Translations under genes and position numbers: made by a program
Notes under the pieces: generated by a model
Told to the model about the DNA's origin: nothing
Seen by the model: the letters and a program-made list of their open reading frames with translations, nothing else
Databases searched by the model: none
In this document: in pieces, positions 870 to 62,916 of the stretch
How positions within the stretch are numbered: the stretch's first letter is position 1
Layout: each line of letters starts with the position of its first letter
Assembly (NCBI RefSeq): GCF_025612915.1
Contig: NC_069115.1
Location: forward strand, 25,791,757-25,855,756
DNA: 64,000 nt
Source: Crassostrea angulata
Taxonomy: Eukaryota
Direction: 5' to 3'

Positions 870-2445
870 AAAACTTTTGTAATGGTAATGTTATGCTTTT
901 ATACGAAATATGTACAAAGGAATAAAATCTAAGATATGTATGAACGGTATGTCATCTGATTTTTTCTGTTGTAATATAGGTGTGCGTCAAGGAGAAAATT
1001 TATCTCCTTTTTTATTTTCATTGTATATTAATGACTTCGAAGATTTTTTATTAGATAAAAATATTGTTGGGTTACAAAGTATTAGTTCTTCCATTGAAGA
1101 TGAGTTGATGTTATACTTGAAACTGTGCCTATTATTTTATGCAGACGATACGGTTATTATGTCTGAGACCGCTGATGATCTCCAGAAAGCACTAGATGAA
1201 TTCCATGTGTACTGTTCCCAATGGAAACTAAATGTCAATGTAGAAAAAACAAAGATATTAGTTTTTTCAAAAGGCCCTAAGCCAAAAAACATTTTTTATT
1301 ATAATAATAACGTTGTTGAAATTGTGAGTGAATTCAAATATTTGGGTACTGTATTTTCCAGAAGTGGATCTTTTTGTAAAGCAAAAAAACACTTAGTTGA
1401 GCAAGCACAGAAAGCTATGTATAGTATTATAAGAAAAATAAGACTTTTTAATCTACCCATGGAGCAACAGTTTGATTTGTTTGATAAAGTAGTAGTGCCG
1501 GTTTTGCTCTATGCTTGTGAAATCTGGGGTTACGAGAATATAGATATTATTGAAAAAATCCATTTGAAATTTTTAAAATATGTTCTATGTATGAAAAGTA
1601 GTACTCCGTCGTATATGGTCTATGGTGAATCAGGTCGTTATCCTTTATACGTAACTGTATATTCTCGAATGATTTCTTATTGGACAAAAATGATCCAAGG
1701 TCAAGACAATAAGATTGTGTTTACTGTTTACAAATATTTAGCAAACCAATATATGTATAATAATGACTGTGTAAATCCATGGACTGATTTTATACGACAT
1801 ATTTTAGACTCATGTGGGTCCTCTAATATCTGGACAGAACAATGTACTGCAATAGTTAATGATAAGTGGATTTCTGCCGCCATCAAACAAAGATTGCAGG
1901 ACCAGTTCATTCAGAAATGGGCAAAAGATATAGATAATTCATCTAAAGGTCAAATATATAAAATTTATAAACAAAAGTTTGGTTTTGAAAAATACTTAGG
2001 CATTCTTACTAAAAAATTTTGGAAACCACTTATTAAATTCAGAACAGCAAATCACCGTTTACCGATTGAAACCGGTAGATGGTATGGAATTCCTGTAAAT
2101 GACAGAAGCTGCACACTCTGTAATAGTGGTAAATTAGCGGACGAATACCATTTTATTCTTGAATGTAAATTTTTTTTAACTTTACGTAAGCAATTTCTAT
2201 GTACCAAGTATTTTCAAAAGCCAAGTACATTAAAATTTAGGGAACTGCTGATGACAACGAACATCAAAACATTGAAAAAATTAAGCTCTTTTATATTGAA
2301 TATCCAAGAGCAATTCTGCTGTCCAGCCTAAACTATATTAGCATTTATTATTATTATTACTCTCCGCGTATTGAACACCAATGAAACATTGTATTAAATT
2401 TTTATATGATGATCTATTTTTTTTTTTTTTTTTTTTCTACCACTT
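870..2445 (+). mobile_element. 5'-truncated non-LTR (LINE) retrotransposon fragment. The ORF at 910-2331 encodes the C-terminal two-thirds of the RT plus a Cys-His tail.
   Basis: RT motifs GVRQGENLSPFLF and FYADDTVI. Also present are FKYLG and a CX2CX9HX4C tail (CTLCNSGKLADEYHFILEC). There is no N-terminal endonuclease. T-rich and ATT-rich sequence at 2340-2441. The fragment is flanked by a 24-bp direct repeat agtaattgtaatttaattaattac at 843-866 and 2664-2687. Confidence 0.75.
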
Positions 2446-3089
2446 TTTGTATTATTACTATTTTTTTTTCTCTTACTTACTTATGCTTACTAACACATGT
2501 AATACTATGTTGTATTATAATTTATATATAATTTATTAGACCCTTGACATCACAATTTAATGTAAATATGTTATTGTACCTCATGTACCATTGTATGATA
2601 ATGGTTTGAGAGAATAAATAAATTGAATTGGTAATGGTAATTTAATTGAAGAATTTAAGCAAGTAATTGTAATTTAATTAATTACTTTCCATTGTAATTG
2701 ACCTCATCCCTGCTTGTGTGGAAGCATTCTCAGGTAGGGTAGCTGCAAGTTCGTTCAAATAATGACCCTGGGGGTAGGGTGGGGTCACAAGATCCAGGGG
2801 GAGACGCAAAAATTTATTTAGGAATATATGGGGAAAATCCTTAAAAATCTTTTTTCTAAAAAAAATATTTTCCTAAGAAAGCTGAAACTTAATTGAAAGC
2901 AATCTCAGATAATGTAGATTCAAATGTGTTCAAATCAAAATCTTGAGTAGGGTAGGGCCATATTTGGGATCCAGTATTACAAAGGAACACATTTTAAATG
3001 TTCACAAAAGCTGAAATGTTATATTATATATTTTTACTTAATATATGCAATCATTTTGACATTTGTTGAGAATTTGGCTCTTAGACAAT

Positions 3090-3399
3090 ACTGGGACCTC
3101 ACAAGGGGTTCAGAGTTTGATGAAGGTTTATATCCTATATATAAACAATTGTTTAGGATCTTTTTGAGAACTGCAATGCTCAACATGTGATATGACTAAA
3201 AAATCATTTTGTTAGAAAAGGGAATAATGATAATAAACATAAGGATATCCAGAGGAAAAATGTATTTTTTTTATACATGATTTACATGTATTATACTAAA
3301 TTGTTTACTAGATAGTTTGTATTTAGACTACATTAAGCTGATTTTATCATATCTATTGTTCCTTAGATGAGCAATGAGGCCCATGGGCCTCTTGTTGAA
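3090..3399 (+). mobile_element. Family B non-autonomous element (about 310 bp) with the same 3' terminus as family A. It is an intact empty site for the family A insertion.
   Basis: ...cacaaggggttcagagtttgat...ggatcttttt|gagaactgcaatgctcaac...gagcaatgaggcccatgggcctcttgtt. Confidence 0.6.
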
Positions 3400-4346: not shown

Positions 4347-5519
4347 GTGTCGGATCAAAAGATACAAGGTTATAAGATGAGATATAAAAAAGCACTAAAA
4401 ATAACCAACGACACGAACAATAAAGTAAAATATTGTCAAATTTTCGGGACAACCCGTCCCTTCTTGGTTGACAACAGAAACAACCTCGATGATTTTATTA
4501 CCTTTGTCAATTCTTTCCATCATTCTATCAAATTTACGACTGAAATTTCCTCATTCAACAACACGTTTCTTGACACTACTTCAACTTTAGTCGATGGTAA
4601 ACTCGATTTCAATCTTCATACTAAACCTACAGATTCCCACCTCTATTTAATGACGTCTAGCTGCCACCCACCTCATACGTTTAGAGGCATACTAAAAGGC
4701 CTAGCCACCAGAGTCAGACGTATTTGTTCAACTCAAGAACTATACTCTGAGCAAAGTCAACTCCTAAAATCCCACTTATGTGCCAGGGGCTACAGCTTGC
4801 ACTCTGTACAGAATGCAATTGATGATTTAGCTAAAGAGGATCGTTTATCCCTTCTGAAATATAAACCCAAAAACGAAGACAACAAGGTCCCATTTGTCAC
4901 TACTTACCACCCTGTCCTTAGGGGCCTAAATGCAGTCCTAAAGAAGAACCTACCAATCCTTTACAGTAATGATAAAATGGTTGAGGTTTTCAAAAACCCC
5001 CCGATGGCAGCTTTCAAGCGCCCTAGAAACCTTAAGGACATGGTGGTAAGAACCAAACTAAAGAACCCTCTGCCTAATGGTGGCTTTAGAACTTGTTCTG
5101 ACACCAGATGTCTGTTGTGCAAACACAGCTCTGATGCAGACGACTTCTCTAGCCCCATTACTGGCCGTACTTACAAAATTTTCGCAAATACTTCTTGTCG
5201 TACGGACAATTGTGTATATCTTATCAATTGTAAATTTTGTCACAAACAATACGTAGGGGAAACAGGAGACCTCCGCAGGCGCATCAATAATCATCGTTCC
5301 ACCATCAAAACTAAGAAAATTAAAGAACCCGTCGGGGAACATTTTAATTTAGATGATCACAAATGGGAGGACATGATGGTTTTGGTCATTGATCACAACC
5401 CTAACTGGACAGATGCGGAGAGAAAAAATAAAGAAAAATTTTGGATGCATAGACTGAAGTCATTCCGCCCTGACGGCATTAACAAATTAAGTGACTTCAC
5501 CAAAATGAACATCAACTAA
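4347..5519 (+). CDS. PLE ORF: RT C-terminal remnant plus linker plus GIY-YIG endonuclease
   Basis: GIY-YIG motifs and CCHH-like finger, as described for the PLE above. Confidence 0.7.
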
Positions 5520-7517: not shown

Positions 7518-8898
7518 GAAATTGAGAAATTTTCAAAAACTCTTCTAAAAAACCATTAGGCCAGGAAAGCTGAAACTTGTGTGGAAGCATCATCAGGTAG
7601 TGTAGATTCAAAGTTGTGAAAATCATTACCCTTGGGGAAAGAGTAGTGCCACAATGGAGGGTCGAAGTTTTACATAAGAATATATAGATCAGTAAATCTT
7701 TAAAAATATTCTTCTCAAAAACTAATCAGCCAGGAAAGCTAAAACTTGTGTGAAAGCATCCTCAAGTAGTGTTGCTTCAAGTTGATAACACCATGACCCC
7801 CAAGGTGTAGGGTAGGGCCACAATGTGGGGGAGGGGGGGAGGTTGAAGTTTTACAAAGGAATATATAGGGTAAATCTTTAGAAATCTTCTTCTCAGAAAC
7901 CATTAGGCCAGGAAAGCTCAAACTTGTGTGGAAGCATCCGCAGGGAGTGTAGATTTAAAGTTGATAACATCATGATCCCCAAGGTGTAGGGTTGGGCCAC
8001 AATGGTGGTGGTCTAAGTTTAAGATATATAATATGTAGAATAAATCTTTAAAAATTTTCATCTCAAAAACTAGTCAGCCAGGAAAGCTGAAACTTGTGTG
8101 GAAGAGTTCTCGGGTAGTTTAGATATAAAGTTGAAAAAAATCATGACCCCCAGGGGTAGGGTGAGGCCAAAATTGGAGATCTATTTTTACATAGGAATTT
8201 ATAGAGTAAATCTGTGAAAATCTTCTCAGAAACCAATTGGCTAGAAAAGCTGAAACTTGTGTGGAAGAATTCTCAGGAAGTCGTGAAAACCATGACCCCC
8301 GGGGATAGGGTGGGGCAACAATGGGGGGGGGGGGTTAAGTTTTACATAGAAAAATATATAGAGTAATCTTTTCTTCTCAGAATCTAATCAGCCAGGAAAG
8401 CTGACCGTGGGGGTAGGGTGGGGCCACAATGGGGTGGGGTCAAAGTTTTACATAGGAATATATAGAGTAACTCTTTAAAAGTCTTCTCCTCAAGAACCAT
8501 TTTGCCAGGAAAGCTGAAACTTGTGTGGGAGCATCCTCAGGTAGTGTAGATTCAAAGTTGTTAAAATCATGATCCCCAGAGGTAGGGTGGAACATAATTG
8601 GGGGGGGGGGGTTGGTTGAAGTTTTACATAGGAATATATATTGTAAATCTTTAAAAATCTTCTTCTCAGAAACTAGGAAAGCTGAAACTTGTGTGGAAGC
8701 ATCCTCAGGTAGTGTAGATTCAAAGTTGTAAAAATCTTGATCCCCGGGTTAGGGTTGGGCCACAATGGGGGTGTTGAAGTTTAACATACTTATTAGGAAT
8801 ATGTAGAGTAAATCTTTAAAAATCCTCTTCTAAGAAACTAGGAAAGCTGAAACTTGGAAGCATCCTTAGGTAGTGTAGATTCAAAGTTGTAAAAATCT
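7517..8898 (+). repeat. Family A satellite array of about 8 monomers of 165-170 bp, preceded by (CT)n. It continues at 9803-10010 after a 904 bp insertion.
   Basis: Repeated aaagctgaaacttgtgtggaagcatcctcaggtagtgtagattcaaagttg...cccgggggtagggtggggccacaatggggg...ttttacataggaatatatagag. Confidence 0.85.
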
Positions 8899-11479: not shown

Positions 11480-11574
11480 TAGCTCACCTGAGCTGAAAGT
11501 TTAAGTGAGCTTTTCTTATCATATTTTGTCTGTCGTCTGTAAACTTTTCACATTTTCACATCTTCTCAAGAACT

Positions 11575-11606
<32 letters not shown>

Positions 11607-11896
11607 TCATCGTTAGGCAAAGGGGATTCAAAGTTGTCAAAATTAAGGACCATGCCCTTTTTTGAGGGGAGATAATTAAAAATTAATGAGAAATTTTTAA
11701 AAATCTTCTTCTCAAGAATCATAAAGCCAGGAAAGCTTGTGTGGAAGCATCCTCTGGTAGTGTAGATTGAAAGTTGTGAAAATCATGACCCCCGGGGGTA
11801 AGATGGGGCCACATTGGGGGAGGGGGTGGTTAAAGTTTTACATAGGAATATATAGAGTAAATCTTTAAAAATCTTCTTCTCAGAAACTAATCAGCC
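11480..11896 (+). mobile_element. Family A element with head plus about 1.5 monomers, 3'-truncated by the adjacent TIR element
   Basis: Head at 11480. Ends abruptly at 11896 and has no tail. Confidence 0.6.
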
Positions 11897-11914
11897 AGAT
11901 GATTCTTTATTATT

Positions 11915-12775
11915 GTTAAAGCTGACATGAATTCATAAAAGCATTTGGTCGCCATATTAGTTTAGATCGCTTCTTTACTGCCACTGGGGTATATATACTG
12001 GTTGAGAAAGTTACGGTCGGTTGCTTTCCGATCGAGGCATTCACGTTGCACGGACTTCTAAATGCATGAACTACACATTGTTTATGTAGTAAAATGTAGT
12101 AATAAAGAATAAAGAAAACAACAATCAATGAAAAACCAAATATATTTTATTCTTAGAAAGGATGTCCAAGGTATCTGTATTATTTTGCACAGACAGTGCT
12201 GCCTTACCTCGCATGCACATCGAACATGTGTGTCGTTCATACAGAGTGCATAACGTCTGCATCTTCTTGAAAACTCTGGCGACACTACATCCAACACAGT
12301 AGCTAAATGATAGTAAATCCAAGAAAGTAACAACGTTTCTATCCGTTCCTACAAAAACTCCCCGTTTATAAAATCCATGCGATAATTGACATTGCTCGAT
12401 CTGTCACAGTGTGTTATTTGCGCATGTGCGATGTTATAACATACACAAGAAAACGGTCTACAATTATCGAGGAATTTCTGAAGTATCTGCGCCTGGATAT
12501 CAGTCTGTCTTGTTTCGTCGTTTATTGGATATATCTTGCCAGTGAAGTGGTTGTCATATTATTTTTGTTCAAAACACGTTTCACGAGTCTTTTCGTCCAA
12601 GGTAACGTGTTCGGGTGTATGAAATTCCTGAATGCGGTGAAGCATGACGAGGGCTCTCGGCCTTATATAGGGGGTGTGTAGCGATGAGCAGAACATAAAA
12701 ATCGACAACTAATATGGCAGTAGTCGGAGAAAAAAGGGAAGTAGTGCGTATTTATGAATTCATGTCAGCTTTAAG
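11915..12775. mobile_element. TIR element of about 860 bp with about 45 bp imperfect terminal inverted repeats (ttaaagctgacatgaattcataaa...gccatatt)
   Basis: The reverse complement of 12748-12771 equals 11918-11941. Both arms continue to gccatatt. Confidence 0.5.
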
Positions 12776-12874
12776 ACTTTGTCTCCAGGACAATTCTTTT
12801 GCCTCACAATTTAGAAGGTTCAGAGTTTGATGTAGCTTTATATCCCATATATAAACAATTGTTAAGGATCTTTT

Positions 12875-12890
12875 TAGCTCACCTGAGCCA

Positions 12891-12922
<32 letters not shown>

Positions 12923-13631
12923 GTCCGTTGTCTGTTGTTGTCGGCGTAGTCATCGTCGTCGTCGTTGTCGTCATCATAAACTTTTCACATTTTCATCTTC
13001 TAATCAAGAACCACTGGGCAGATCTTAAACAAATTTGGCACAAAGCACCACTAGGTAAAGGGGATTCAAGTTTGTTCAAATCATGGTCCCCGGGGGTAGG
13101 GTGGGGCCACAATTGGGGGATAAATTTTTATACAGGAATATATGGAGAAAATCTTTAAAAATCTTCTTTTTAAAGACTATTTGGCCAGAAAAGCTTAAAC
13201 TTGTGTAGAGGCATCATCGGGTAGTGTAAATTCAAGTTTTCAAAATCACAGTCCCTAGTGGTAGGGCGGGGCTGTGATGGCGGTTTTACATAGGAATATA
13301 TCGAGAAAATTTTTAAAAATATTCTGGGAAAGTTTTGCAGATTTATGTTTGATTGAACCATGATTCCCTAGAGAAAAGTGGGGCCATGAAATGAGGGGGG
13401 GGGGGGGGGGGGTATATAGGAATAGAGAAAAATCTTCTTACAGGTACAACAAAAGGGGCTTGGTATTTACCAAAAAAAAGGAGGTGGATAAAAATTGGCA
13501 GATTTTCAAATTTTTTAAGAAAGATCTACTGTACTAAGTTGTCAAGATATTTTGATACTGTAATGCTAATTTGATCTGAATTTAGGCAATTGTTGCTCAG
13601 GTGAGCGATGTGGCCCTTGGGCCTCTTGTTT
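12875..13631 (+). mobile_element. Family A composite element (pearl or Helentron-like): head, (GTCR)n-like tract, about 4 satellite monomers, then a tail. It is inserted into a family B element.
   Basis: Head is tagctcacctgagccaaaggctcaagtgagcttttctgatcac. Tail is ...gttgctcaggtgagcgatgtggcccttgggcctcttgtt. Empty paralogous sites at 3161-3166 and 41241-41246 show a precise insertion without target-site duplication. Confidence 0.7.
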
Positions 13632-13831
13632 GAGAACTGCAATACTCAACATGTGATATGATTATAAAATCATCCTATTAGAAAAGGGACTAATAACTAT
13701 AAACATAAGAATATCCAGGGGGGAAAATGGATTTTATTTATACAGGATCTACATGTATTATTGTACCGGTACATTGTCCAGATTGTTTGTATTATGACTC
13801 CATTAAACTGATTTTATCATACCTATTGTAC

Positions 13832-13863
<32 letters not shown>

Positions 13864-14299
13864 ATTTTAGTATCTGTTGTATTTGGTAACACTGAATGTC
13901 TGACAACCAAACATAACACCGTCAAACCAACAGACTTATCTTACAGGTACACAGAAGACAGCAACTCGCGTGTAAATTCGGAATTTCGGATTTATCACGA
14001 TTGCGCTAACATTACAAAAAATATAACTTTAAATTCAAACTCTGCATTGCTGCCATTATATATGCACAGTAAAGTTGTTAAGTACAGGCATGTAGCATCG
14101 TTTTTTAAAGGAAATAGGACAGAATAATCTGAAATCAGGACAAGCAAAAAGAAGAGACTCCTTATAAATTCAATTTTTTTTAGGTCACCCTGAATTTACT
14201 ATTGCTGTCCGTTTTCGTCCGCCGTCATGCATTAACAATTTACATTTCTAACTTCTTCTTAAAAACTACAAGGCTGATTGTTACCATTTTTGGTGTAAG

Positions 14300-15280
14300 G
14301 CATCTCTTTGGTAAGAGGAATCTAAATTGTGAAATTCATGTCTCTACCACCCCCAGGGCACCACATGTGGGGCCAAATATGCAAAAAAATAGCCAAATTT
14401 TCAAAAATCTTCTTCTCTACTCCCACACATGTGAGGAAAAAAGTGGTTACATAGTTATGATGTCCATGAATCCCTTAAACCAAAATTGTGAAATTCATGG
14501 CCCCTGGGTCAGGGGTTTTGGCTTTAGGGTGGGGCCAATATGCCCATATTGTAAAAATGTATTAAATCTTCTTCTCTACTACCAAAGATATTTGTTAAAA
14601 ACTAAATACATGATTATGATGTCCATGAAGCCTTCTACTTAAATTGTGAAATTCATGACCCTGTGTCAGGGGTTCAGGCTCGAGGAGGGGGGGGGGGGGA
14701 TATGGCCATATAGTAAAAATGTATTAATTTTTAGAAAATCTCTTCTCTACTCCCATATATATTTGTTAAAAACTAAATGCATGGTTATGATGAACATGAG
14801 GCCCTCTACCAAATTGTGAAATGCATGACCCCTGGGTCAGGGGTTCAGGCTAAAGGGTGGGGCCAATATGGCCATATAGTAAAAATGTGTTTAATCTTAG
14901 AAAATCTTCTCTACTCCCATATAACTCCACTAACTCCTCTACCTCAATTGGGAAATTCATGGCCCTTGGGTCAGGGGTTTAGAACATGAGGGGGGGGGGG
15001 CAATATGGCAATATAGTGTTAATGCATATGTTTTAAAATGTTCTTCTTTATTCTCACACATCTGTATAAAAAACTAACTTATAATTACGTTTACCAGGAA
15101 GTTCTAGTCTACTGAAATTTTAATTTTCATGTCCCCTGGAGTATGGGTTTTGACTCTAGGGCAGGGCGGAAATGGATGTAGAGCGCTAAGAGGTGTTGAT
15201 GCATATAATGTTAAAAAATTATCTTCTTTACTCCCACACACCTGAAAGGAAAACTGAATTCATGGTTTTGTAGACCAGAT
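14300..15280 (+). repeat. Family E satellite of about 7 units of roughly 150 bp, distantly related to family A
   Basis: Repeated attgtgaaattcatg.cccctgggtcaggggtt...gggtggggccaatatggccatat.gtaaaaatg...cttctctactccca. Confidence 0.75.
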
Positions 15281-37934: not shown

Positions 37935-37950
37935 TAGCTCACCTGAGCCA

Positions 37951-37982
<32 letters not shown>

Positions 37983-38089
37983 GTCCGTTGTCTGTCGTCG
38001 TTGTCGTTGTAAACTTTTCACATTTTAATCTTCTTCTCAAGAACCACTGGGCAGATTTCAACCAAATTTGGCATAAAGCACCACTAGGT

Positions 38090-38127
<38 letters not shown>

Positions 38128-39901
38128 CCCTCTTTAAAAGGGAGATAATTGAGAATTATTGAAAATTTGTTGGTACTTTTCAAAAATCTTCTTTTAAAAA
38201 ACTATTCGGCCTGAAAAGCTTAAACTTGTGTGGAGGCATCCTCAGGTAGTGTACATTCAAGTTTGTTCAAATCATGGTCCCAGGGGGTAGGGAAGGGCTA
38301 CAAGAGGGGGATCAAGTTTTACATAGGAATATATAGACAAAATCTTTAAAAATCTTCTTTTCAAAAACTATTTGGCCAGAAAAGCTCAAAGTAAAGTGGA
38401 AGCATCCTCAGATAGTGAAGATTCAAGTTTGTTCAAATCATGGTCCCCAGGGGTAGGGTGGGGCCACAATTAGGGGATCAAGTTTTACATAGGAATATAT
38501 AGAGAAAATCTTTAAAAATCTTCTTCTCAAAAATTATTAGGCCAGAAAAGCTCAAATTAAAGTGGAAGCATCCTCAGGTAGTGTAGATTCAAGTTTGTTC
38601 AAATCATGGTCCCCGGGGATATGGTGGGGCCACAATGGGGGAATGGATTTTTACATAGGAATATATAGAGAAAATCTTCTTCTCAAAAACTATTCAAATT
38701 AAAATGAAAGCATCTTCAGGTAGTGTAGATTCAAGTTTGTTCAGATCATTGTGCCTGGGGGTAGGGTGGGGCCACAATAGGGGGGATCAATTAAGTTTTA
38801 CATAGGAATATATAGAGGAAATCTTTAAAAATCTTCTTCTCAAAAACTTTTAGGTCAGCAAAGCTCAAATTTGAGTGGAAGCATGGATTTTTACATAGGA
38901 ATATATAGAGAAAATCTTCTTCTCAAAAACTATTCAAATTAAAATGAAAGCATCTTCAGATAGTATAGATTCAAGTTTGTTCAAATCATTGTCCCTAGGG
39001 GTAGGGTGGGGCCACAATTAGGGGATAAAGTTTTATACAACAATATATAGAGAAAATCTTTAAAAATAATTCTTTTAAAAATTATTTGCCCAAGAAAGCT
39101 CAAATTGGCGTGTAACCATCCTCAGATAATGTAGTTTCAAGTCTGTTCAAATCATGGTCCCTGGGGGTAGGGCGGGGCCACAATGGGGGATAAATTTTTA
39201 TAAATATAGAAAATCTTTAAAAATCTTCTCAAAACTATTAGGCCAGGAAAGCCCAAATTTGAGTGGAAGCATCCCCAGATCGTATAGATTCAAGTTTGTT
39301 TAAATAATAGTCCAGGGGTATGGTGAGACCACAATGGGGGATGAATTTTTACATAGGAATATATAGAGAAAATCTTTAAAAATCTTCTTTTTAAAGACTA
39401 TTTGGCCAGAAAAGCTCAACTTGTGTAGAGGCATCCTCGGGTAGTGTAAATTCAAGTTTGTAAAATCACAGTCCCTAGTGATAGGGCGGGGCCGTGATGG
39501 CGGTTTGAATTTTTACATAGGAATATATAGAAAAAATCTTTAAAAATATTCTGTGAAAGTTTTCGGTCCAAAACTCAGTATTTAGTGTGAAAGCACAGGT
39601 TATGCAAATTTAAGTTTAATGAAACCATTATTCCCTAGAGAAAAGTGGGACCACGAAATGGAGGTGGGGGGGGGGGGTATATAGGAATAGAGAAAAATCT
39701 TCTTACAGGTACAACAACAAAAGGGGCTTGGTATTTACCCAAAAAAAAAAGAGGTTGATAAAAATTGGCAGATTTTCATTTTTTTTTTTAGCAAGATCTT
39801 AGTACTTAGTTGTCAAGATATTTTGATTCTGTAATGCTAATTTGATTAGAATTAAGGCAATTGTTGCTCAGGTGAGCGATGTGGCCCCTGGGCCTCTTGT
39901 T
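37935..39901 (+). mobile_element. Family A composite element: head, about 10 monomers, tail
   Basis: Same head (37935) and tail (39860-39901) as the 12875 copy. The terminal monomer variants are shared with the copies at 12875 and 56215. Confidence 0.7.
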
Positions 39902-40142
39902 GTTTCTCATTTGATGAATTAGACTTAACATCTTTGATTCCCCAATCTTGGTTAAAAAGCAGTTCATAGTTAAATAAACTTGTACCAAAAATAATTTGAA
40001 AAATTGTTAATTCATACTTCATCTTATTTGGATTCTTTTTTTAGTTTAGTTGTTCTAAAAGTCATTAAGATTTTTATTAATCCATACTTAGAATAATTTA
40101 TGTTTTGTTCAGTCGTATCATGAATCATTCGTTTTTTTAGCT

Positions 40143-40239
40143 CACCTTAGCTGAAAGCTCCAGTGAGCTTCTCTGATCACTTTTTGTCTGGGGTCCATCG
40201 TTCTGTCTGTCTGTCCATCTGTCTGTATACTTTTTAGCC

Positions 40240-40277
<38 letters not shown>

Positions 40278-41060
40278 TTTTTGTCCTGTGTCCATCTGTC
40301 TGTCCGTCCGTCCATCTGTCTGTCTGGCTGTAAACTTTTTACATTTTCAACTTCTTCTCCAGAACCAATTGACCAATTTCAATTAAACTTGACACAAAGC
40401 ATCATTTGGTAAAGGGGATTCAAGTTTGTTAAAATGAAGGCCTTTCAAGGGGACATAATAAGGATTTATTAAAAATTTGTTGATATTTTTCATAAATCTT
40501 CTTCTCATAAACCATTTGGCAAGAAAAGCTGAAACTTGTTTTGAAGCATCATCAGATAGTGTAGATTCAAGTTTGTTCAAATCATGATCCCCGTGGGTAA
40601 GGTGGGGCCACAATGGGGGTCAAGGTTTTACATAGAATACACTGAGTAAATCTTTAAAAATCTTCTCCTCAGAAACCAATCAGCATGGAAAGCTGAAACT
40701 TGTAAGGAAGCATTCTGAGTTAGTGTAGATTTGAAGTTGTGAAAATCATGTCCCCTGGGGATAGGATGGGGCGAAAATGGGGAATCAAACTTAAACTTAG
40801 GAATATATATATTGTAAATCTTTTAAAATCTTCTTCTCAAACACCATTTGGCCAGAAAAACTAATTTATAAAAACTTGTGTGGAAGCATCCTCAATAAGT
40901 ACAAATTTAAGTTTTCTAAAAACCACTAAAGCTTCCCTAGAAAAGCTGTAACTTTACTGACAGCAACCTCAGATAGATTCAACTTTTTTCATATCAAAAT
41001 CTTGAGGAGTAGGGTGGGGCCACATTGAGTATCCAATTTTACAAAGAAAAATATTTTAAT
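40143..41060 (+). mobile_element. Family A element with a duplicated head (40143 and 40243), GTCY-rich tracts and about 4 monomers. No tail.
   Basis: Two tandem heads, ttagctcaccttagctgaaagctccagtgagc and tagcccacctgagctgaaagctcaagtgagc. Confidence 0.6.
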
Positions 41061-41149
41061 TCATAAAAACTAAAATGTTATCATATATGGTTTTATTTAT
41101 ATGCACGCATTTTAACATATTGCTGATTCTTTCAAATTGTTTAGATTTT

Positions 41150-42003
41150 GGCCCCTGGAGAATTAATGGCCCACACAAGGGGTTCAGAGTTTGATATAGG
41201 TTTATACTAGTATCCCATATATAAACATATGTTTTGGATCTTGTTGAGAACTGTAATGCTCAACATGTGATATGACTATATGTAACCCAGGCAGTAGACA
41301 GAACACCAGTGAGGGTCATACAATGTATTTATTCAATATATACAAAAAACCTGAAACATACAACATTGACTCATTTGACAATTATCTCAGAATACGGTAC
41401 AATAACTTGGATAAAGATTATTTAATATATAGCATGGAATTGTTAAATTATAAACATAGAATATATTTATAAGTAATAAATTACACAAGAATTACCAGAC
41501 ACCGGCAGCTAATCGCAGACAAAGCTTGCGCTTAATCTTCATACATACAGGTCTGTCCCCTCTCAAGGCAAGACAAAGTGTGCGCGGGCCTGGTTAGTTA
41601 GGCGGGAAGATTGGTTAGTAGAAGTTAAATTTAGAATGTTGTCAGACAGGTCAAACGGGTAGTCGAATGGTCAAATAAAAATAAACAATTACATGTGGAC
41701 AATCTCACCTGGAGATGTAAATAAAACACACACACATGCACACAGAAACAATTACGTTTACAAATAGACAAACATTATATATTAATTACTTACACTGGTT
41801 ACATATAGAATCATCCTGTTAGAAAAGGGACTTGATTATAAACATAAGAATCTCAGGGTGAAAAAAATTTGGACTTTTATTTATACAAGAGCTCCATGTA
41901 TTATTATACATTGTCCAGATAGTTTGTATTATGACTCCTTTAAACTGATTTTATCATACATATTGCTGCTCAGGTGAGCGATGTGGTCCATGGGCCTCTT
42001 GTT
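41150..42003 (+). mobile_element. Family B element interrupted by a nested TIR MITE at 41281-41803
   Basis: 5' part at 41150-41280, 3' part at 41806-42003 ending ctcaggtgagcgatgtggtccatgggcctcttgtt. Confidence 0.6.
41281..41803. mobile_element. MITE of about 520 bp with TIRs TGTAACCCAGG and CACTGGTTACA, flanked by a TA or TATA target-site duplication
   Basis: Flanks are gacta-TA|tgtaacc and ggttaca|TA-tagaatc. Uninterrupted copies of the host element read gactaaaaaatc or gattataaaatc. Confidence 0.55.
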
Positions 42004-42402
42004 TTTCTTTTTGTAAGAGTAATCTTAATTGTGAATGTACATGAAGCCCTCTACCTAAATTGTGAAATTGATTGCCCCTGGGTCAAGGGTTTATGCATGT
42101 TAATAAATCCTTTTCAGCATTTCAAAAACACAAAACTTACATCACGTGAAACAAATCAAAACTAAGAGTTGGGTAAAACTAGTAACTGTAGGTTCTGTGT
42201 GCTGGGCCCCAATTTATGTTGGAAGGTGACATTTATTTAAATTCACACATAAAAAAATGAATTTTGAACAGAACAAACTAAACCCCATTTTTGGCAGGGC
42301 ACAAATAATTATTGAAAAATTTTACAAAAAATTTCAGGAAACTAATAACATTGATAAAAATGTTGTGTTTTCACATTTTTTCTTTGATGCTCTTATTCTC
42401 AG

Positions 42403-45155: not shown

Positions 45156-46613
45156 TCAGTTAGAAAATTTAACATATTTTTTACTAATTTTAAATCTGCC
45201 ACATTCAAAGTCATCAACTACTCTTGGTAAAAGTTTGTTGAAGTAAAAACAACATAGTCTTGAAATAGCTGCTTCACAAAACTGTTGGTCATATTGTACA
45301 TCAATGACCTTGTATTCATTAGTTGTCCAAATAACAAGTTTGCACAGCTGCATATGTGTTACATGCAAAGTTAACTGCATTTGAAGGTAATAGCCCCTTG
45401 AACTGTTATGCTTAAAATATAATGTACCATTTTGCAAGGATTTCACAACATCATATTTACCAATTGTAAATAAGCTGTCAAGTGTTTGATCATTCTTAAG
45501 TATTGGACATTTAATTTCCAAAAGACATTTTGAACCATCAGCATTGGTTACTATTCCATCTGGGGAAACACTTAGCCAGGGCTCTTCACCTTCTTGTCCA
45601 TGTCTAGTAAATTTGTTTGATGTGAAGGAAGGGTACATATGTTCTCTTAAGAAGTTATCACTATTTGTAGTGTCACGAACGGGAACCTTGTGGTGCTCAG
45701 TACTGCCAGTTATTCTTATTTTTCTACTGTTGTGCCACAATTCAGATTCACTTTGTGAAATTGTTGCCATCGATAACGATTGAATTTGGGCATCATTAAG
45801 TTTAATGTACATGTACCTGTTATAAAACGCACAACACTTTTCACAAGATAGTTCACCTGTATGCTCAGTACGAGGCTCGGATGAAGATTCGAAAAGAGAT
45901 TTGTTTATATTTGCGTGCATAGATTTACTTAAAAGTGAATTTTCTAAAAGAAATAATTCTTTAAGTTCTGAGTTTTCCACAAAATATTTAAAAGATTGAT
46001 ATGATACAAACATTGGGAAGATAGATTTTGTATTTTGTGGTTTTTCAGTATTGTTGTTAACCTCACTGCCATATTTAGGTTTTTTAAAGTCCATCTCTTC
46101 AAGAACACCTGGTTCAAGGTTTCTTGTCGCACCCTTATTCCACTGCATCTGCTCATCTGTACAAGATTTTCCCGTAAAACCTAACCTTACAGCATGCTCA
46201 ATTTTCCACAAAAGTGCGCCTACATGACTGCACGTTTTACTGTTCCCAGCCATACATGAACATCCCCCGTTTAGAATTGTGCCGATCATATCACAGAATA
46301 CCCATGCATTGTGAAACTCTGAATTTATTTTTTGTGACGGGCGCACTTCAGATTTCAGAATAACTGTATTGTGAATAACAAAATGAAGAATTTTCCCGAC
46401 AGAACCGCTTTTAAAATAATTGTAACTGTCCAATGATTTGTAATTTTTCATTTTTTCGCCGTCACATGCTCTACTTAAAATCAAATAATTGTAGATATCG
46501 CCATATTCTACTTGTGGCCACTCACGAATGTCATCCTTCCATTCACCGGTTTTGACGTCTTTTTGGGAAGAAATCATTCGATCAGTATCTTTTTTGCATT
46601 GACTCTTATCCAT
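45156..46613 (-). CDS. Intronless 485-aa ORF encoding a SWIM-type zinc finger plus a YqaJ/lambda-exonuclease-like PD-(D/E)xK nuclease
   Basis: SWIM signature CSCMAGNSKTCSHVGALLW (CxCxnCxH). YqaJ-type motifs ITGSTEHH, WLSVSPDGIV and KCLLEIKCP (motif ExK). ATG at 46611-46613 and stop at 45156. No internal stop codons over 1458 nt in an AT-rich region. TTTATT on the + strand at about 44930 would be the minus-strand poly(A) signal. Confidence 0.7.
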   Translation of the reverse strand: MDKSQCKKDTDRMISSQKDVKTGEWKDDIREWPQVEYGDIYNYLILSRACDGEKMKNYKSLDSYNYFKSGSVGKILHFVIHNTVILKSEVRPSQKINSEFHNAWVFCDMIGTILNGGCSCMAGNSKTCSHVGALLWKIEHAVRLGFTGKSCTDEQMQWNKGATRNLEPGVLEEMDFKKPKYGSEVNNNTEKPQNTKSIFPMFVSYQSFKYFVENSELKELFLLENSLLSKSMHANINKSLFESSSEPRTEHTGELSCEKCCAFYNRYMYIKLNDAQIQSLSMATISQSESELWHNSRKIRITGSTEHHKVPVRDTTNSDNFLREHMYPSFTSNKFTRHGQEGEEPWLSVSPDGIVTNADGSKCLLEIKCPILKNDQTLDSLFTIGKYDVVKSLQNGTLYFKHNSSRGYYLQMQLTLHVTHMQLCKLVIWTTNEYKVIDVQYDQQFCEAAISRLCCFYFNKLLPRVVDDFECGRFKISKKYVKFSN

Positions 46614-56214: not shown

Positions 56215-56231
56215 TTAGGTCACCTGAGCCA

Positions 56232-56263
<32 letters not shown>

Positions 56264-56291
56264 GTCCGATGTCTGTCGTTGTCGTCATCGT

Positions 56292-56322
<31 letters not shown>

Positions 56323-57758
56323 AAGAACCGCTGGGCAAATTTCAACCAAATTTGGCACAAAGCACCACTAGGTAAAGGGGATTCCAGTTTGTTTAAATGA
56401 AGGGCCACGGAAAATTATTGAAAATTTGTTGGTATTTTTCAAAAATCTTCTTCTCAAAAACTATTCGGCCTGAAAAGCTTAAACTTGTGTGGAGGCATTC
56501 TCAGGTAGTGTAGATTCAAATTTGTTCAAATCATGGTCACCGCGGGTAGGGAGGGGCCACAGGGGAGGGTCAAGTTTTACATATGAATATATAGAGAAAA
56601 TCTTTTAAAAATCTTCTTCTCAAAAACTATTAGGCCAGGAAAGCTCAAATTAAAATGGAAGCATCTTCAGGTAGTGTAGATTCAAGTTTGTTCAAATCAT
56701 GGTCTCTGTGGGTAGGGTGGGGCCACAATAGGGGGGATCAAGTTTAACATAGGAATTTATAGAGGAAATCTTTAAAAATCTTCTTCTCAAAAACTATTAG
56801 GCCAGGAAAGCTTATATTTGAGTGGAAGCATCCTCAGATAGTGTAGTTTTAAGTTTGTTACAATCATGGTCACCGGGGGTAGCGTGGGGACACAATTGGG
56901 GGATCAAGTTTTACATAGGAATATTTAGAGGAAATCTTTAAAAATCTTTTTCTCAAAAACAAGAAAGCTCAAATTGGCGTGTAACCATCCTCAGATAATG
57001 TAGATTCAAGTCTGTTCAAATCATGGTACCTGGGGGTAGGGCGGGGCCACAATGGGGGATAGTTTTTATACATAGAGAAAATCTTTAAAAATCTTCTATT
57101 AGGCCAGGAAAGCCCACATTTGAGTTGAAGCATCCCCAGATCGTATAGATTCAAGTTTGTTTAAATAACAGTCCAGGGGTACAGTAAGGCCACAATGGGG
57201 GATGAATTTTTACATAGATATATAGAGAAAATCTTTAAAAATCTTCTTTTTAAAGACTATTTGGCCAGAAAAGCTTAAACTTGTGTAGAGGCATCCTCGG
57301 GTAGTGTAAATTCAAGTGTGCAAAATCAGTCCCTAGTGATAGGGCAGGGCTTTGATGGCGGTTTGAACTTTTACATAGGAATATATAGAGAAAATCTTTA
57401 AAAATATTCTGGGAAAGTTTTCGGTCCAAAACTCAGTACTTAGTGTGAAAGCACAGGTTATGCAGATTTAAGTTTGATGAAACCATGATTCCTTAGAGAA
57501 AAGTGGGGCCACGAAATTTTGGAGGGGGGGGGGGGGTACATAGGAATAGAGAAAAATCTTCTTACAGGTAGAATAACAAAAGGGGCTTGGTATTTACCAA
57601 AAAAAAAAGAGGTTGATAAAAATTGGCAGATTTTCAATTTGTTTTAGTAAGATATACTGTACTTAGTTGTCAAGATATTTTGATACTGAAATGCTAATTT
57701 GATTTAGAATTAAGGCAATTGTTGCTCAGGTGAGCTATGTGGCCCCTGGGCCTCTTGT
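56215..57758 (+). mobile_element. Family A composite element (head, about 7 monomers, tail) inside the last MVP intron
   Basis: Head is taggtcacctgagccaaaggctcaagtgagc. Tail ends ggcccctgggcctcttgtt at 57758. Confidence 0.7.
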
Positions 57759-57926
57759 TTTTATAATTATTTTAAACACCATGTAAACTTGAAAAAGAAT
57801 CAGACTCCCATTACAAATGCTGTTCATGTAAACTCATCATGGAAAAGCATTTATTACAGACATAAACTGAAATGTGTGTTAATCACTTCTGCAAAATTGT
57901 GTTTGAAATAACAATTATTTTTTTAG

Positions 57927-59764: not shown

Positions 59765-62700
59765 GTCCAGTGCAGTTTGTTCAAATCTTGGTTCCCGGGG
59801 GTAGGGTAGGGTCACAATAGAGGGATCAAGTTTTACATAGGAATATATAGAGAAAATCTTTAAAATCTTCTTCTCAAAGCATCCTCAGGAAGTGTAGTTT
59901 CAAGTTTGTTCAAATCATGGTCCCCGGGGGTAGGGTTGGGCCACAATAGGGGGGGGGCAAGATTTACATAGGAATATATAGAGAAAATCTTTAAACTTTC
60001 TTCTCAAAAACAATTATGCAAGAAAAGCTCAAATTAAAATGGAAGTATCCTCAGGTAGTGTAGATTCTAGTTTGTTAAAATCATGGTCCCCGGGGGTAGG
60101 GTAGGGCCACAGTAGGGGGATCAAGTTTTACATAGGAATATATAGAAAAAATCTTTAAAATCTTCTTCTCAAAAATTATCCGGGGAGGAAAGCTCAAATT
60201 GAATTGGAAGCATCATCAGGAAGTGTAGTTTTAAGTTTGTTCAAATCTTGGTTCCCGGGGGTAGGGTAGGGCCACAATAGAGGGATCAAGTTTTACATAG
60301 GAATATATAGAGAACATCTTTAAAATAGAAAAGCTCAAATTAAAATTGAAGCATCCTCAGGAAGTGTATATTCAAGTTTGTTCAAATCATGGTCCCCGGG
60401 GGTAGGGTTGGGCCACAATAGGGGGGGGCAAGATTTACATAGGAATATATAGAAAAAAATCTTTAAACTTTCTTCTCAAAAACGATTACGTCAGGAAAGC
60501 TCAAATTAAAATGGAAGTATCCTCAGGTAGTGTAGATTCAAGTTTGTTCAAATCATTGTCCCCGGGGGTAGGGTAGGGCACGGTAGGGGGATCAAAATTT
60601 ACATAGGAATATATAGAGAAAATCTTTAAAATCTTCTTCTCAAAAAGTATCATGTCAATAAAGCTCATATTAAAATGGAATTATCGTCAGGTAGTGTAGA
60701 TTCTAGTTTGTTCAAATCATGGTCCCCGGGGGTAGGGTTGGGCCACAGTAGGGGGATCAAGTTTTACATAAAAATATATCGAGAAAATCTTTAAAATCTT
60801 CTTCTCAAAAAGTACCAGCGGAGGAAAGCTCAAATTGAAATAAAAGCATCATCAGGAAGTGTTGTTTCAAGTTTGTTCAAATCTTGGTTCCCAAGAATAG
60901 GGTAGGGTCACAATAGAGGGATCAAGTTTTACATAGGAATATATAGAGAAAATTTTTAAAATCTTCTTCTCAAAAATTATCAGGTTAGGAAAGATCAAAT
61001 TAAAATGGAAGCATCCTCAGGAAGTGTATATTCAAGTTTGTTCAAGTCATCGTCCCCGGGGGTAAGGTTGGGCCACAATAGGGGGGGGGGGGTCAAGATT
61101 TACATAGGAATATATTGAGAAAATCTTGAAACTTTCTTCTCAAAAACGATTACGCCAGGAAAGCTCAAATTAAAATGGAAGAATCCTCAGGTAGTGTAGA
61201 TTCAAGTTTGTTCAAATCATGGTCCCCGGGGGTAGGGTAGGGCAACAGTAGGGGGATCAAAATTTACATAGGAATATATCGAGAAAATCTTTAAAAACTT
61301 CTTCTCAAAAAGTATCATGTCAATAAAGCTCATATTAAAATGGAATTATCGTCAGGTAGTGTAGATTCTAGTTTGTTCAAATCATGGTCCCCGGGGGTAG
61401 GGTTGGGCCACAGTAGGGGGATCAAGTTTTACATAAAAATATATCGAGAAAATCTTTAAAATCTTCTTCTCAAAAAGTACCAGCGGAGGAAAGCTCAAAT
61501 TGAAATGAAAGCATCATCGTGAAGTGTAGTTTCAAGTTTGTTCAAATCTTGGTTCCCAAGAATAGGGTAGGGCCACAATAGAGGGATCAAGTTTTACATA
61601 GGAATATATAGAGACAATCTTTAAAATCTTCTTCTCAAAAATTATCAGATTAGGAAAGATCAAATTAAAATGGAAGCATCCTCAGGAAGTGTAGTTTCAA
61701 GTTTGTTCAAATCATCGTCCTCGGGGGTAAGGTTGGGCCACAATAGGGGGGGGGGGTCAAGATTTACATAGGAATATATTGAGAAAATCTTTAAACTTTC
61801 TTCTCAAAAACGATTACGCCAGGAAAGCTCAAATTAAAATGGAAGAATCCTCAGGTAGTGTAGATTCTAGTTTGTTCAAATCATGGTCCCCGGGGGTAAG
61901 GTAGGGCCACAGTAGGGGGATCAAGTTTTACATAGGAATATATAGAGAAAATCTTTAAAATCTTCTTCTCAAAAAGTATCATATCAGAAAAGCCCATATT
62001 AAAATGGAATTATCCTCAGGTAGTGTAGATTCTAGTTTGTTCAAATCATGGTCCCCGGGGGTAGGGTAGGGCCACAGTAGGGGGATCAAATTTTAAATAG
62101 GAATATATAGAGAAAATCTTTTTCTCAAAAAGTATCAGGGGAGGAAAGCTCAAATTGAAATCGAAGCATCATCAGGAAGTGTAGTATCAAGTTTGTTCAA
62201 ATCTTGGTTCCTGGGGGTAGGGTAGGGCCACAGTAGGGGGATCAAGTTTTACATAGGAATATATAGAGACAATCTTTAAAATCTTCTTCTCAAAAAGTAT
62301 CAGGGGAGGAAAGCTCAAATTGAATTGGAAGCATCATTAGGAAGTGTAGTTTAAAGTTTGTTCAAATCTTGGTTCCCGGGGGTAGGGTTGGGCCACAATA
62401 GAGGGATCAAGTTTTACATAGGAATATATAGAGAAAATCTTTAAAATCTTCTTCTCAAAAAGTATCATGTCAGAAAAGCTCAAATTAAAATGGAAGCATC
62501 CTCAGGAAGTGTAGTTTCAAGTTTGTTCAAATCATGGTCCCCGGGGGTAGGGTTGGGCCACAGTAGGGGGATCAAGATTTACATAAGAATATATCGAGAA
62601 AATCTTTAAAATCTTCTCAAAAAGTACCAGCGGAGGAAAGCTCAAATTGAATTGAAAGCATCATCAGGAAGTGTAGTTTCAAGTTTGTTTAAATCTTGGT

Positions 62701-62916
62701 TCCCGAGAATAGGGTAGAGTCACAATAGAGGGATAAAGTTTTACATAGGAATATATAGAGAAAATTTTTAATCTTCTTCTCAAAAATTATCAGGTTAGGA
62801 AAGCTCAAATTAAAATGGAAGCATCCTCAGGAAGTGTAGTTTCATGTTTGTTCAAATCATCGTCCCCAGGGGTAGGGATGGGCAACAATAGGGGGGGGGG
62901 GTCAAGTTTTACATAG
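59765..62916 (+). repeat. Family A-related satellite array in the + orientation, about 19 monomers with a roughly 665 bp four-monomer higher-order repeat
   Basis: Monomer subtypes a, b, c and d recur in the order b-c-d-a with a period of 663-666 bp (b-type at about 60429, 61095, 61758). Confidence 0.85.

What the first reader, a model, noticed from the sequence alone, without database searches (positions are those of the whole stretch)
12795..13870. Precise insertion without target-site duplication of an array-bearing element, shown by two empty paralogous sites in the same window
The filled site reads ggatcttttT|AGCTCACCTGAGC ... GGCCTCTTGTT|Tgagaactgcaatactcaac. The family B copies at 3161-3166 (ggatctttttgagaactgcaatgctcaac) and 41241-41246 (ggatcttgttgagaactgtaatgctcaac) are uninterrupted. 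No target duplication is present. The element begins with TAGCTC and ends in a palindromic hairpin plus CTTGTT. Insertion occurs next to a T, between T and T or between T and G (37935 copy). Together these features are the signature of rolling-circle, Helitron or Helentron-type transposition. Cut-and-paste insertion would leave a target-site duplication. This supports the view that the oyster-type satellite is mobilised inside Helentron-like non-autonomous elements. The same mechanism has been proposed for Cg170/HindIII satellites and for pearl elements.
Basis: partly seen in the sequence, partly recalled or inferred. Interest (0 to 1): 0.7.

Follow-up and report, generated by a model that had tools for sequence, protein, structure and literature searches.

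The report
Known oyster Helentron-type element, nested insertion
A 756-base non-coding mobile element sits precisely inside an older, related element in this Pacific oyster sequence; it belongs to the already published Cg_HINE (Helitron-N2_CGi) family, so the finding is correct but ordinary.

Summary
Removing 756 bp (window 12875-13630, boundary movable by up to 3 T) makes the host copy collinear, to the base, with two uninterrupted paralogues at 3161 and 41241. The insert has the full anatomy of a non-autonomous Helentron (HINE). Its ends match the published Box 1 (43/44) and Box 2 (38/39) of Repbase Helitron-N2_CGi/N2C_CGi, the Cg_HINE group 1 of Vojvoda Zeljko et al. 2020. That paper already reports T-rich targets, no target-site duplication, empty-site analysis and nesting in other transposons. 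The window is Crassostrea gigas: 399/399 bases match an array catalogued in that paper.

Three corrections apply:
- "Family B" is itself a Cg_HINE-type element, so this is HINE nested in HINE.
- "No target duplication" is not strictly provable at this site. The data equally fit a 753-bp core plus a TTT repeat. A second filled/empty pair (metagenome contig L110) adds core plus 2 T, which argues against a fixed-length duplication.
- The insert carries only about two decayed monomers, not a called array.

Two TIR transposons nested in the same family show clear TTAA and TATA duplications, which serve as internal controls. No Rep/helicase partner was found. The finding is already known and of low interest.

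The parts
12875..13630 (+). E1: the inserted 756-bp Cg_HINE-type (Helitron-N2_CGi-like) non-autonomous element, written TAGCTC...CTCTTGTT. It is equally 12876-13631, or shifted left by up to 3 T.
   Evidence: No ORF of 77 aa or more overlaps it.
12877..12888 (+). 5' subterminal inverted repeat GCTCACCTGAGC, 2 nt from the element start.
   Evidence: 12/12 complementary to 13595-13606 (I7).
12894..12905 (+). Internal inverted repeat (IR) GCTCAAGTGAGC, which pairs with the 5' subTIR.
   Evidence: The 5' hairpin 12875-12910 folds at -12.3 kcal/mol as DNA, z -5.15, 0/200 shuffles as good.
12926..12972 (+). Microsatellite-like segment (CGTTGTCGT x5, of GTCK/GTCY type).
   Evidence: TRF. The position after the IR is as described for Cg_HINE.
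12978..13092 (+). Box 3-like segment. It runs in register into the first monomer.
   Evidence: 95/111 (85.6%) identical to published Box 3 positions 1-115.
12995..13325 (+). About two decayed monomer-length units of the Cg170/HindIII-related family.
   Evidence: 78.9% over 332 bp to the dimer of the in-window 166-bp consensus. The two units are 60% identical to each other. TRF does not call an array.
13595..13606 (+). 3' subterminal inverted repeat GCTCAGGTGAGC, 24 nt from the 3' end.
13612..13623 (+). 3' palindrome GGCCCTTGGGCC, followed by TCTTGTT to the 3' end.
   Evidence: Present in all 8 tails in the window. It is thermodynamically weak on its own (-3.3 kcal/mol, z about -2).
11480..13866 (+). 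It has a Box 1-like head (11480-11523, 38/44), microsatellite, Box 3 (11541-11696, 89%), monomers to about 11899, a 3' unique region and a Box 2-like tail (13827-13865, 36/39).
11916..12774 (.). Internal control: a TIR transposon (11920-12770) nested in B1, flanked by a duplicated TTAA (11916-11919 and 12771-12774).
   Evidence: 24-nt 100% inverted repeat (I1). After removing the element plus one TTAA, B1 is collinear with B3 (TTTA) and B2 (TTGA).
3161..3166 (+). Empty site in paralogue B2 (TTTTT|G). B2 is a 5'-truncated copy spanning about 2708-3396.
41241..41246 (+). Empty site in paralogue B3 (TTGTT|G). B3 spans 40235-42003 and is preceded by an extra head unit at 40138-40234.
41277..41807 (.). 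Internal control: a 523-bp insertion (41281-41803, ends TGTAACC...GGTTACA) in B3, flanked by a duplicated TATA (41277-41280 and 41804-41807). B1 has a single TATA at this position and B2 has TAAA.
37935..39901 (+). E2: a stand-alone copy of the same subfamily as E1 (Box 1 43/44, Box 2 38/39), with a real 166-bp array.
56216..57759 (+). E4: another stand-alone copy (Box 1 42/44, Box 2 37/39), with a 166-bp array.

Best explanation
E1 (12875-13630) is a decayed copy of a known non-autonomous Helentron of Crassostrea gigas: Cg_HINE group 1, Repbase Helitron-N2_CGi family. It inserted at the 3' edge of a five-T run inside an older element of the same superfamily, B1 (11480-13866).

Shown here:
- The insertion is precise to the base relative to two paralogous empty sites.
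- The element is non-coding.
- It has the asymmetric HINE architecture: 5' subTIR 2 nt from the end, complementary IR forming a strong hairpin, microsatellite, Box 3, monomers, 3' subTIR 24 nt from the end, short palindrome, and terminal CTCTTGTT.
- Apart from 2-3 T, nothing is added at the target.

Inferred from what is established for Helitrons and Helentrons, not shown here:
- Mobilisation in trans by a Rep/helicase(+endonuclease) protein of an autonomous Helentron.
- Nicking at an oligo-T target.
- Single-strand (rolling-circle or peel-and-paste) transfer that starts at the 5' end and stops at the 3' hairpin, which leaves no fixed-length target-site duplication.
For: - Filled versus empty alignment and chimeric-flank BLAST.
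- Box 1 43/44, Box 2 38/39 and Box 3 85.6% against sequences published for Helitron-N2_CGi/N2C_CGi (PMC8268682 Table S3).
- SubTIRs 12/12 complementary, and a 5' hairpin of -12.3 kcal/mol, z -5.15.
- Microsatellite.
- The Cg_HINE description matches item by item, including the T-rich target, no TSD and nesting in other TEs (PMC7492417).
- General HINE features (PMC4067079).
- Stand-alone copies with the same ends at 37935-39901 and 56216-57759.
- A second, independent filled/empty pair in metagenome contig L110. The filled site reads cccTTTTT|AGCTC...CTCTTGTT|ctctg; the two empty sites read cccTTTTTctctg and ccTTTTTTctttg. It adds the core plus 2 T, against core plus 3 T for E1.
- 121 heads from metagenome contigs have T at each of positions -5 to -1 in 90% or more of cases, with -6 at background composition.
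- Two TIR elements nested in the same B family show unambiguous 4-bp duplications (TTAA, TATA) by the same paralogue comparison.
- The window is C. gigas: 399/399 identity to a catalogued CL1 array on scaffold298.
Against: - No Rep/helicase/endonuclease ORF is present in the window or in 441 kb of related contigs. The literature also could not link any autonomous C. gigas Helentron to Cg_HINEs.
- At this site, a 753-bp core AGCTC...CTCTTG flanked by a TTT direct repeat fits the data equally well. At L110, a TT repeat fits.
- The 3' palindrome is thermodynamically weak.
- E1 is old (about 83% identical to its closest in-window relatives), so no recent activity is shown.
Confidence: 0.9

Rival explanations
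1. E1 is a cut-and-paste MITE. In this reading the 12-bp inverted repeats are its functional TIRs, it is mobilised by a DDE transposase, and it makes a short oligo-T (TT/TTT) target-site duplication.
For: - Perfect 12-bp inverted repeats.
- Every copy is flanked by at least 2 T on both sides of the core AGCTC...CTCTTG.
- The E1 site fits a TTT duplication and the L110 site fits a TT duplication.
- Earlier papers described related elements as MITE-like with possible target-site modification (stated in PMC4067079).
Against: - The 3' inverted repeat is 24 nt inside the element and is followed by a conserved palindrome and CTCTTGTT, so the ends are not symmetric.
- The implied duplication would differ in length between the two tested sites (3 nt versus 2 nt).
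- To my knowledge no DDE superfamily makes TT/TTT duplications.
- True TIR elements in the same host family show clean 4-bp duplications.
- The literature re-analysis found no target-site modification for HINEs.
Confidence: 0.06
2. The 756 bp is ancestral to family B and was precisely deleted in the lineage of B2 and B3, so there was no insertion into B1.
For: B2 and B3 could descend from one master copy, so the two empty sites are not necessarily independent (identities are 76-83%).
Against: - The segment is a complete element with its own head and tail. The same element exists as stand-alone copies in unrelated flanks (37935-39901 and 56216-57759).
- A deletion would have to coincide exactly with both element ends.
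- B1 is closer to B3 (82.5%) than B2 is to B3 (76.3%). That gives no support for a B2+B3 clade that shares a deletion.
Confidence: 0.02
3. The filled/empty pattern is an assembly or alignment artefact produced by repeats.
For: The region is dense in related repeats, and a naive MAFFT alignment of the unspliced sequences fails.
Against: The junctions are read directly from the sequence. They are reproduced by spliced alignment and by BLAST. An analogous case occurs in an independent contig.
Confidence: 0.02

Closest known systems
Cg_HINE group 1 (Cg_HINE_1/_2; Repbase Helitron-N2_CGi, N2d_CGi, N2C_CGi) of Crassostrea gigas: Vojvoda Zeljko et al. 2020 (PMC7492417); Tunjic-Cvitanic et al. 2021 (PMC8268682)
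   Same: - Same species and genome.
- Head, tail and Box 3 sequences nearly identical to the published boxes.
- Same module order: subTIR, IR, microsatellite, Box 3, Cg170-related monomers, subTIR, palindrome.
- T-rich target, no evident TSD, and nesting in other repeats.
   Different: E1 is a short, decayed copy with only about two degenerate monomers.
DINE-1 / HINE elements of Drosophila, mites and mosquitoes (Thomas, Vadnagara and Pritham 2014, PMC4067079)
   Same: - SubTIRs close to the 5' end and internal at the 3' end.
- IR after the 5' subTIR.
- 3' stem-loop, microsatellite and central repeats.
- Oligo-T targets, with a variable number of T at the ends shown by paralogous empty sites.
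   Different: - No sequence similarity was tested.
- The 3' subTIR lies 24 nt from the end here, against 38-60 nt in the mite families.
- For DINE-1 an autonomous Helentron partner is known. For Cg_HINE none is.
pearl elements of Crassostrea virginica and Anadara (Gaffney et al. 2003; as summarised in PMC7492417)
   Same: Bivalve non-autonomous elements carrying up to six ~160-bp central repeats, some of them related to Cg170.
   Different: Different species.
Canonical Helitrons (5' TC ... CTRR 3', insertion between A and T)
   Same: Asymmetric ends, a 3' hairpin, and no target-site duplication. The mechanism is presumed to be rolling-circle.
   Different: The termini are TAGCTC...CTCTTGTT, the target is a T-run, and subterminal inverted repeats are present. 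The canonical Helitron end features are not met.

Membership tests
HINE (non-autonomous Helentron; Thomas et al. 2014) | 11-15 bp subterminal inverted repeats: the 5' one a few nt from the terminus, the 3' one internal. | tested here: met
   GCTCACCTGAGC at 12877-12888 (2 nt from the start) and GCTCAGGTGAGC at 13595-13606 (24 nt from the end) are 12/12 complementary.
HINE (non-autonomous Helentron; Thomas et al. 2014) | Short IR just downstream of the 5' subTIR (DINE-1/Cg_HINE type). | tested here: met
   GCTCAAGTGAGC at 12894-12905. The hairpin folds at -12.3 kcal/mol, z -5.15.
HINE (non-autonomous Helentron; Thomas et al. 2014) | Short palindrome (stem-loop) between the 3' subTIR and the 3' end. 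| tested here: met
   GGCCCTTGGGCC at 13612-13623, conserved in 8/8 tails in the window. Energetically weak.
HINE (non-autonomous Helentron; Thomas et al. 2014) | Insertion in oligo-T/TT without target-site modification. | tested here: inconclusive
   The insertion is precise at a T5 run, and only 3 T (E1) or 2 T (L110) are added beyond the core AGCTC...CTCTTG. This is consistent with no TSD and variable terminal T, but a 2-3 nt oligo-T duplication cannot be formally excluded.
HINE (non-autonomous Helentron; Thomas et al. 2014) | No coding capacity. | tested here: met
   Only ORFs of 76 and 63 aa overlap 12875-13631.
HINE (non-autonomous Helentron; Thomas et al. 2014) | Termini shared with an autonomous Helentron that encodes Rep/helicase and an AP-endonuclease. 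| not testable with these tools
   No such ORF was found in the window or in 120 related contigs. The oyster genome itself cannot be searched here. The literature reports the partner as unresolved.
Cg_HINE group 1 / Repbase Helitron-N2_CGi family | Box 1 (5' end), Box 2 (3' end) and Box 3 (between microsatellite and repeats) sequences. | tested here: met
   Box 1 43/44, Box 2 38/39, Box 3 95/111 over positions 1-115.
Cg_HINE group 1 / Repbase Helitron-N2_CGi family | Central tandem array of ~166-bp Cg170/HindIII-related monomers, in fixed orientation. | tested here: inconclusive
   There are about two decayed monomer-length units in the expected orientation (79% to the in-window consensus, 78% to a published CL1 monomer), but TRF calls no array. 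Sister copies E2 and E4 carry real arrays.
Canonical Helitron (Helitron1) | 5' TC, 3' CTRR, insertion between A and T. | tested here: not met
   The ends are TAGCTC...CTCTTGTT and the target is TTTTT|G.
TIR (cut-and-paste) MITE | Inverted repeats at both extreme termini, plus a fixed-length target-site duplication. | tested here: not met
   The 3' repeat is 24 nt internal. The apparent T repeat differs in length between the two tested sites. True TIR elements in the same host family show TTAA and TATA duplications.

The most novel reading that the evidence does not exclude
The target of this family may be more specific than the published 'TT / T-rich' description. It may be a run of about five T with integration at its 3' edge, where the five T upstream of AGCTC are host-derived rather than element-borne.

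The support is as follows:
- T5 is present in 4/4 full empty sites.
- T4 is present in the paralogous empty versions of the two half-sites.
- T is found at 90% or more at each of positions -5 to -1 in 121 heads, and -6 is at background.

This would point to an L1-like TTTT/N nick by the Helentron endonuclease. Frequent HINE-in-HINE nesting at internal T-runs (B1/E1, the Box 3 sites, tail-to-head abutments) could then be the route by which composite two-array elements such as Cg_HINE_10_13 arise.
Probability: 0.3. Interest if true: 0.3.

Novelty: already known. Interest (0 to 1): 0.12.

Why it matters
It matters little beyond annotation. The site is a clean textbook example of how HINE/Helentron insertions look: precise, at an oligo-T run, and nested in an older relative. 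TIR transposons in the same host family provide built-in positive controls for target-site duplication.

It also illustrates why 'no TSD' can never be read from a single oligo-T site. The real open question for these oyster elements is which autonomous Helentron moves them, and this window does not advance it.

Tried and rejected
- A direct MAFFT alignment of the unspliced filled locus with the two empty loci mis-aligned because of the large gaps. It was replaced by spliced alignment and chimeric-flank BLAST.
- A full-text search for the terminal motifs returned only unrelated primer hits. The published boxes were found in a supplement instead. Table S2 of PMC7492417, which holds the subTIR/IR/palindrome sequences, is illegible in the held copy.
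- Empty sites for the other in-window copies (B1, E2, B3, E4) were sought and none exists in the window.
- An autonomous partner was sought. The window ORFs of 150 aa or more are RT, GIY-YIG, YqaJ or have no Pfam family. The long ORFs in the 120 metagenome contigs all lie outside the elements. Of the seven scanned against Pfam, four are host genes (PKD, CILP, coiled-coil, HSP70) and three match no family.
- My first regular expressions for tails in the contigs were too strict. They were replaced by BLAST.
- The metagenome contigs are not the same loci as the window, with only short ~90% matches inside elements. They therefore give no presence/absence information for E1.
- The idea that the five upstream T are part of the element was considered because of their >=90% conservation. 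It was rejected because the empty sites already contain them.

Full report
**1. Observation**

The filled site reads ...caattgttaaggatcTTTTT AGCTCACCTGAGCcaaaGGCTCAAGTGAGCT ... GCTCAGGTGAGCgatgtGGCCCTTGGGCCTCTTGTTT gagaactgcaatactcaac. The two proposed empty sites read ...tgtttaggatcTTTTTgagaactgcaatgctcaac (3150-3184) and ...tgttttggatcTTGTTgagaactgtaatgctcaac (41230-41264).

After removing 12876-13631, the host copy aligns through the junction with both paralogues, with no gap or extra base. The homology extends about 100 bp to the left and about 240 bp to the right, as far as a shared 3' tail. A chimeric 100+100 bp flank query hits 3107-3262 in one piece (88.5%/157 bp, E 9e-54) and hits 41181-41280.

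Two details need correction:
- The boundary is ambiguous by up to three T. The left flank ends in T5 and the insert ends in GTTT. The same data can be written as TAGCTC...CTCTTGTT inserted between two T, or as a 753-bp core AGCTC...CTCTTG flanked by a TTT direct repeat.
- TRF finds no array inside the insert. It holds about two monomer-length units that are 79% identical to the in-window 166-bp consensus and only 60% identical to each other.

**2. What the insert is**

Its anatomy, from 5' to 3', is:
- TA, then a 12-bp subTIR (12877-12888).
- A complementary IR (12894-12905). Together with the subTIR it forms a strong hairpin (-12.3 kcal/mol, z -5.15).
- A CGTTGTCGT-type microsatellite (12926-12972).
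- A Box 3-like segment (12978-13092).
- Decayed monomers.
- A 3' unique stretch.
- The 3' subTIR (13595-13606, 12/12 complementary).
- A short palindrome, GGCCCTTGGGCC (13612-13623).
- The terminal TCTTGTT.

No ORF longer than 76 aa overlaps it.

The same head occurs six times and the same tail eight times in the window. These include the stand-alone copies at 37935-39901 and 56216-57759, which carry genuine 166-bp arrays.

The supplement of Tunjic-Cvitanic et al. 2021 (PMC8268682, Table S3) prints the conserved boxes of Repbase Helitron-N2_CGi/N2C_CGi. E1 matches Box 1 at 43/44, Box 2 at 38/39, and Box 3 at 95/111 over its first 115 positions.

Vojvoda Zeljko et al. 2020 (PMC7492417) describe exactly this architecture as Cg_HINE and map Cg_HINE_1, _2 and _10_13 to Helitron-N2, N2d and N2C_CGi. 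They also report:
- T-rich/TT targets and no TSD.
- An empty-site analysis by flank chimeras.
- Insertion into other TEs.
- Failure to find the autonomous partner.

The window itself is C. gigas. Window 8443-8841 is 399/399 identical to the CL1 array 'scaffold298 392660-393114' in that paper's Table S1.

**3. The host 'family B'**

B is not an anonymous repeat. B1 (11480-13866) has its own Box 1-like head (38/44), microsatellite, Box 3 (89%), monomers, a ~340-bp 3' unique region and a Box 2-like tail (36/39). B3 (40235-42003) has the same layout, and B2 (~2708-3396) is 5'-truncated. The finding is thus a HINE nested in an older HINE.

The same three-paralogue comparison reveals two further nested insertions that do show target-site duplications:
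- A TIR element at 11920-12770, with a 24-nt perfect inverted repeat and a duplicated TTAA.
- A 523-bp element at 41281-41803, flanked by a duplicated TATA.

These are positive controls. Where a cut-and-paste element inserted into family B, the duplication is plainly visible. At E1 only T's are in question.

**4. Target site**

A pattern scan of metagenome contigs for the head, with no T required in the pattern, returned 120 animal-host contigs. They contain host genes and no Rep/Hel.

Across 121 heads, each of the five bases before AGCTC is T in 90-97% of cases, while position -6 is at background composition. After CTCTTGTT the next base is T in about three quarters of tails, and composition is random thereafter.

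Contig L110 contains a second, independent filled/empty set. The filled site reads cccTTTTT|AGCTC...CTCTTGTT|ctctg, and two empty paralogues read cccTTTTTctctg and ccTTTTTTctttg. Half-sites at window 40235 and at L099 likewise show a T4 run already present in the uninterrupted paralogues.

So the upstream T-run is host-derived, and the element adds its core plus 2 T (L110) or 3 T (E1). The unequal number argues against a fixed-length duplication. It reproduces what Thomas et al. 2014 reported for HINEs: a variable number of terminal T and no target-site modification. A strict proof of 'no TSD' is nevertheless impossible at oligo-T targets.

**5. Mechanism**

The shown facts are the precise insertion, the asymmetric ends, the hairpins, the oligo-T target and the lack of coding capacity. 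Mobilisation in trans by a Helentron Rep/helicase/endonuclease through a single-stranded rolling-circle-type intermediate is inferred from family membership. No such protein is encoded in the window, whose ORFs are RT, GIY-YIG and YqaJ, and the partner is unknown in the literature.

The rivals receive little support:
- A TIR MITE with an oligo-T duplication.
- Precise deletion in the empty copies.
- An assembly or alignment artefact.

**6. Verdict**

Both are already published for this genome, so novelty is 'already known' and interest is low. The only mildly new points are the sharper T5 target picture and the recurrent HINE-in-HINE nesting at internal T-runs. These rest on few empty sites and on contigs of unidentified bivalve origin.

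Noticed in passing
window 8443-8841: 399/399 identity to the CL1 tandem array 'scaffold298 392660-393114' listed in Supplementary Table S1 of PMC7492417. The window is therefore Crassostrea gigas (oyster.v9 scaffold298, around 384-448 kb if collinear).
   Followed up: yes
window 40138-40326: Two tandem 97-bp head units (T-run + Box 1-like head + microsatellite), 83/97 identical. The left flank of the second head matches the start of Box 3 of other HINE copies (GTAAACTTTT^CACATTTT). It therefore looks like another HINE-in-HINE insertion at a T-run, but the host's 3' part is not found after 42003. A 5'-end tandem duplication is the alternative.
   Followed up: partly
window, all Box 1/Box 2 hits (11480...57758): All 6 heads and all 8 tails in the 64 kb lie on the + strand, although the literature reports both orientations genome-wide. 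The long satellite array switches orientation at about 62900 (59877-62895 versus 62912-64000).
   Followed up: no
Box 3 regions: window 11541-11696, 38011-38168, 12978-13092: The published 'Box 3' between the microsatellite and the array is itself a diverged monomer (68.6% over 105 columns to the 166-bp consensus; alignment score 69 versus 19 +/- 3 for shuffles). In E1 it continues in register into a monomer. This favours an origin of the array from sequence intrinsic to the element.
   Followed up: partly
window 11916-12774: An 851-bp non-coding TIR element with 24-nt perfect inverted ends and a TTAA duplication (piggyBac/Kolobok-like target), nested in B1. Its family was not identified.
   Followed up: partly
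window 41277-41807: A 523-bp insertion in B3 with ends TGTAACC...GGTTACA and a duplicated TATA. Its family was not identified.
   Followed up: partly
L096 (reverse strand ~1010-1030) and L001 (reverse strand ~1360-1380): A tail abutting a head of another copy (CTCTTGTT|AGCTCACC in L096, and ...CCCATGG TTTTT|AGCTC in L001). These are either tandem copies, or insertion using the tail's TTGTT as the T-run target. Both readings are compatible with rolling-circle read-through.
   Followed up: no
window 910-2331, 4347-5519 and 804-873 / 2640-2690: An RT ORF and a GIY-YIG ORF on the + strand (Penelope-like element parts), with the truncated HINE copy B2 between them. Similar GTAATTGTAATTTAATTAATTAC repeats occur at 804-873 and 2640-2690, just where B2 is truncated.
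   Followed up: no
window 14307-14981 and 42035-42092: A ~165-bp periodic repeat downstream of B1, not called by TRF, matches sequence just downstream of B3 (about 86% over 57 bp).
   Followed up: no
window 45156-46613 (- strand): A 485-aa ORF with a YqaJ-like recombinase/exonuclease domain (E 3.7e-06), probably part of another mobile element.
   Followed up: no
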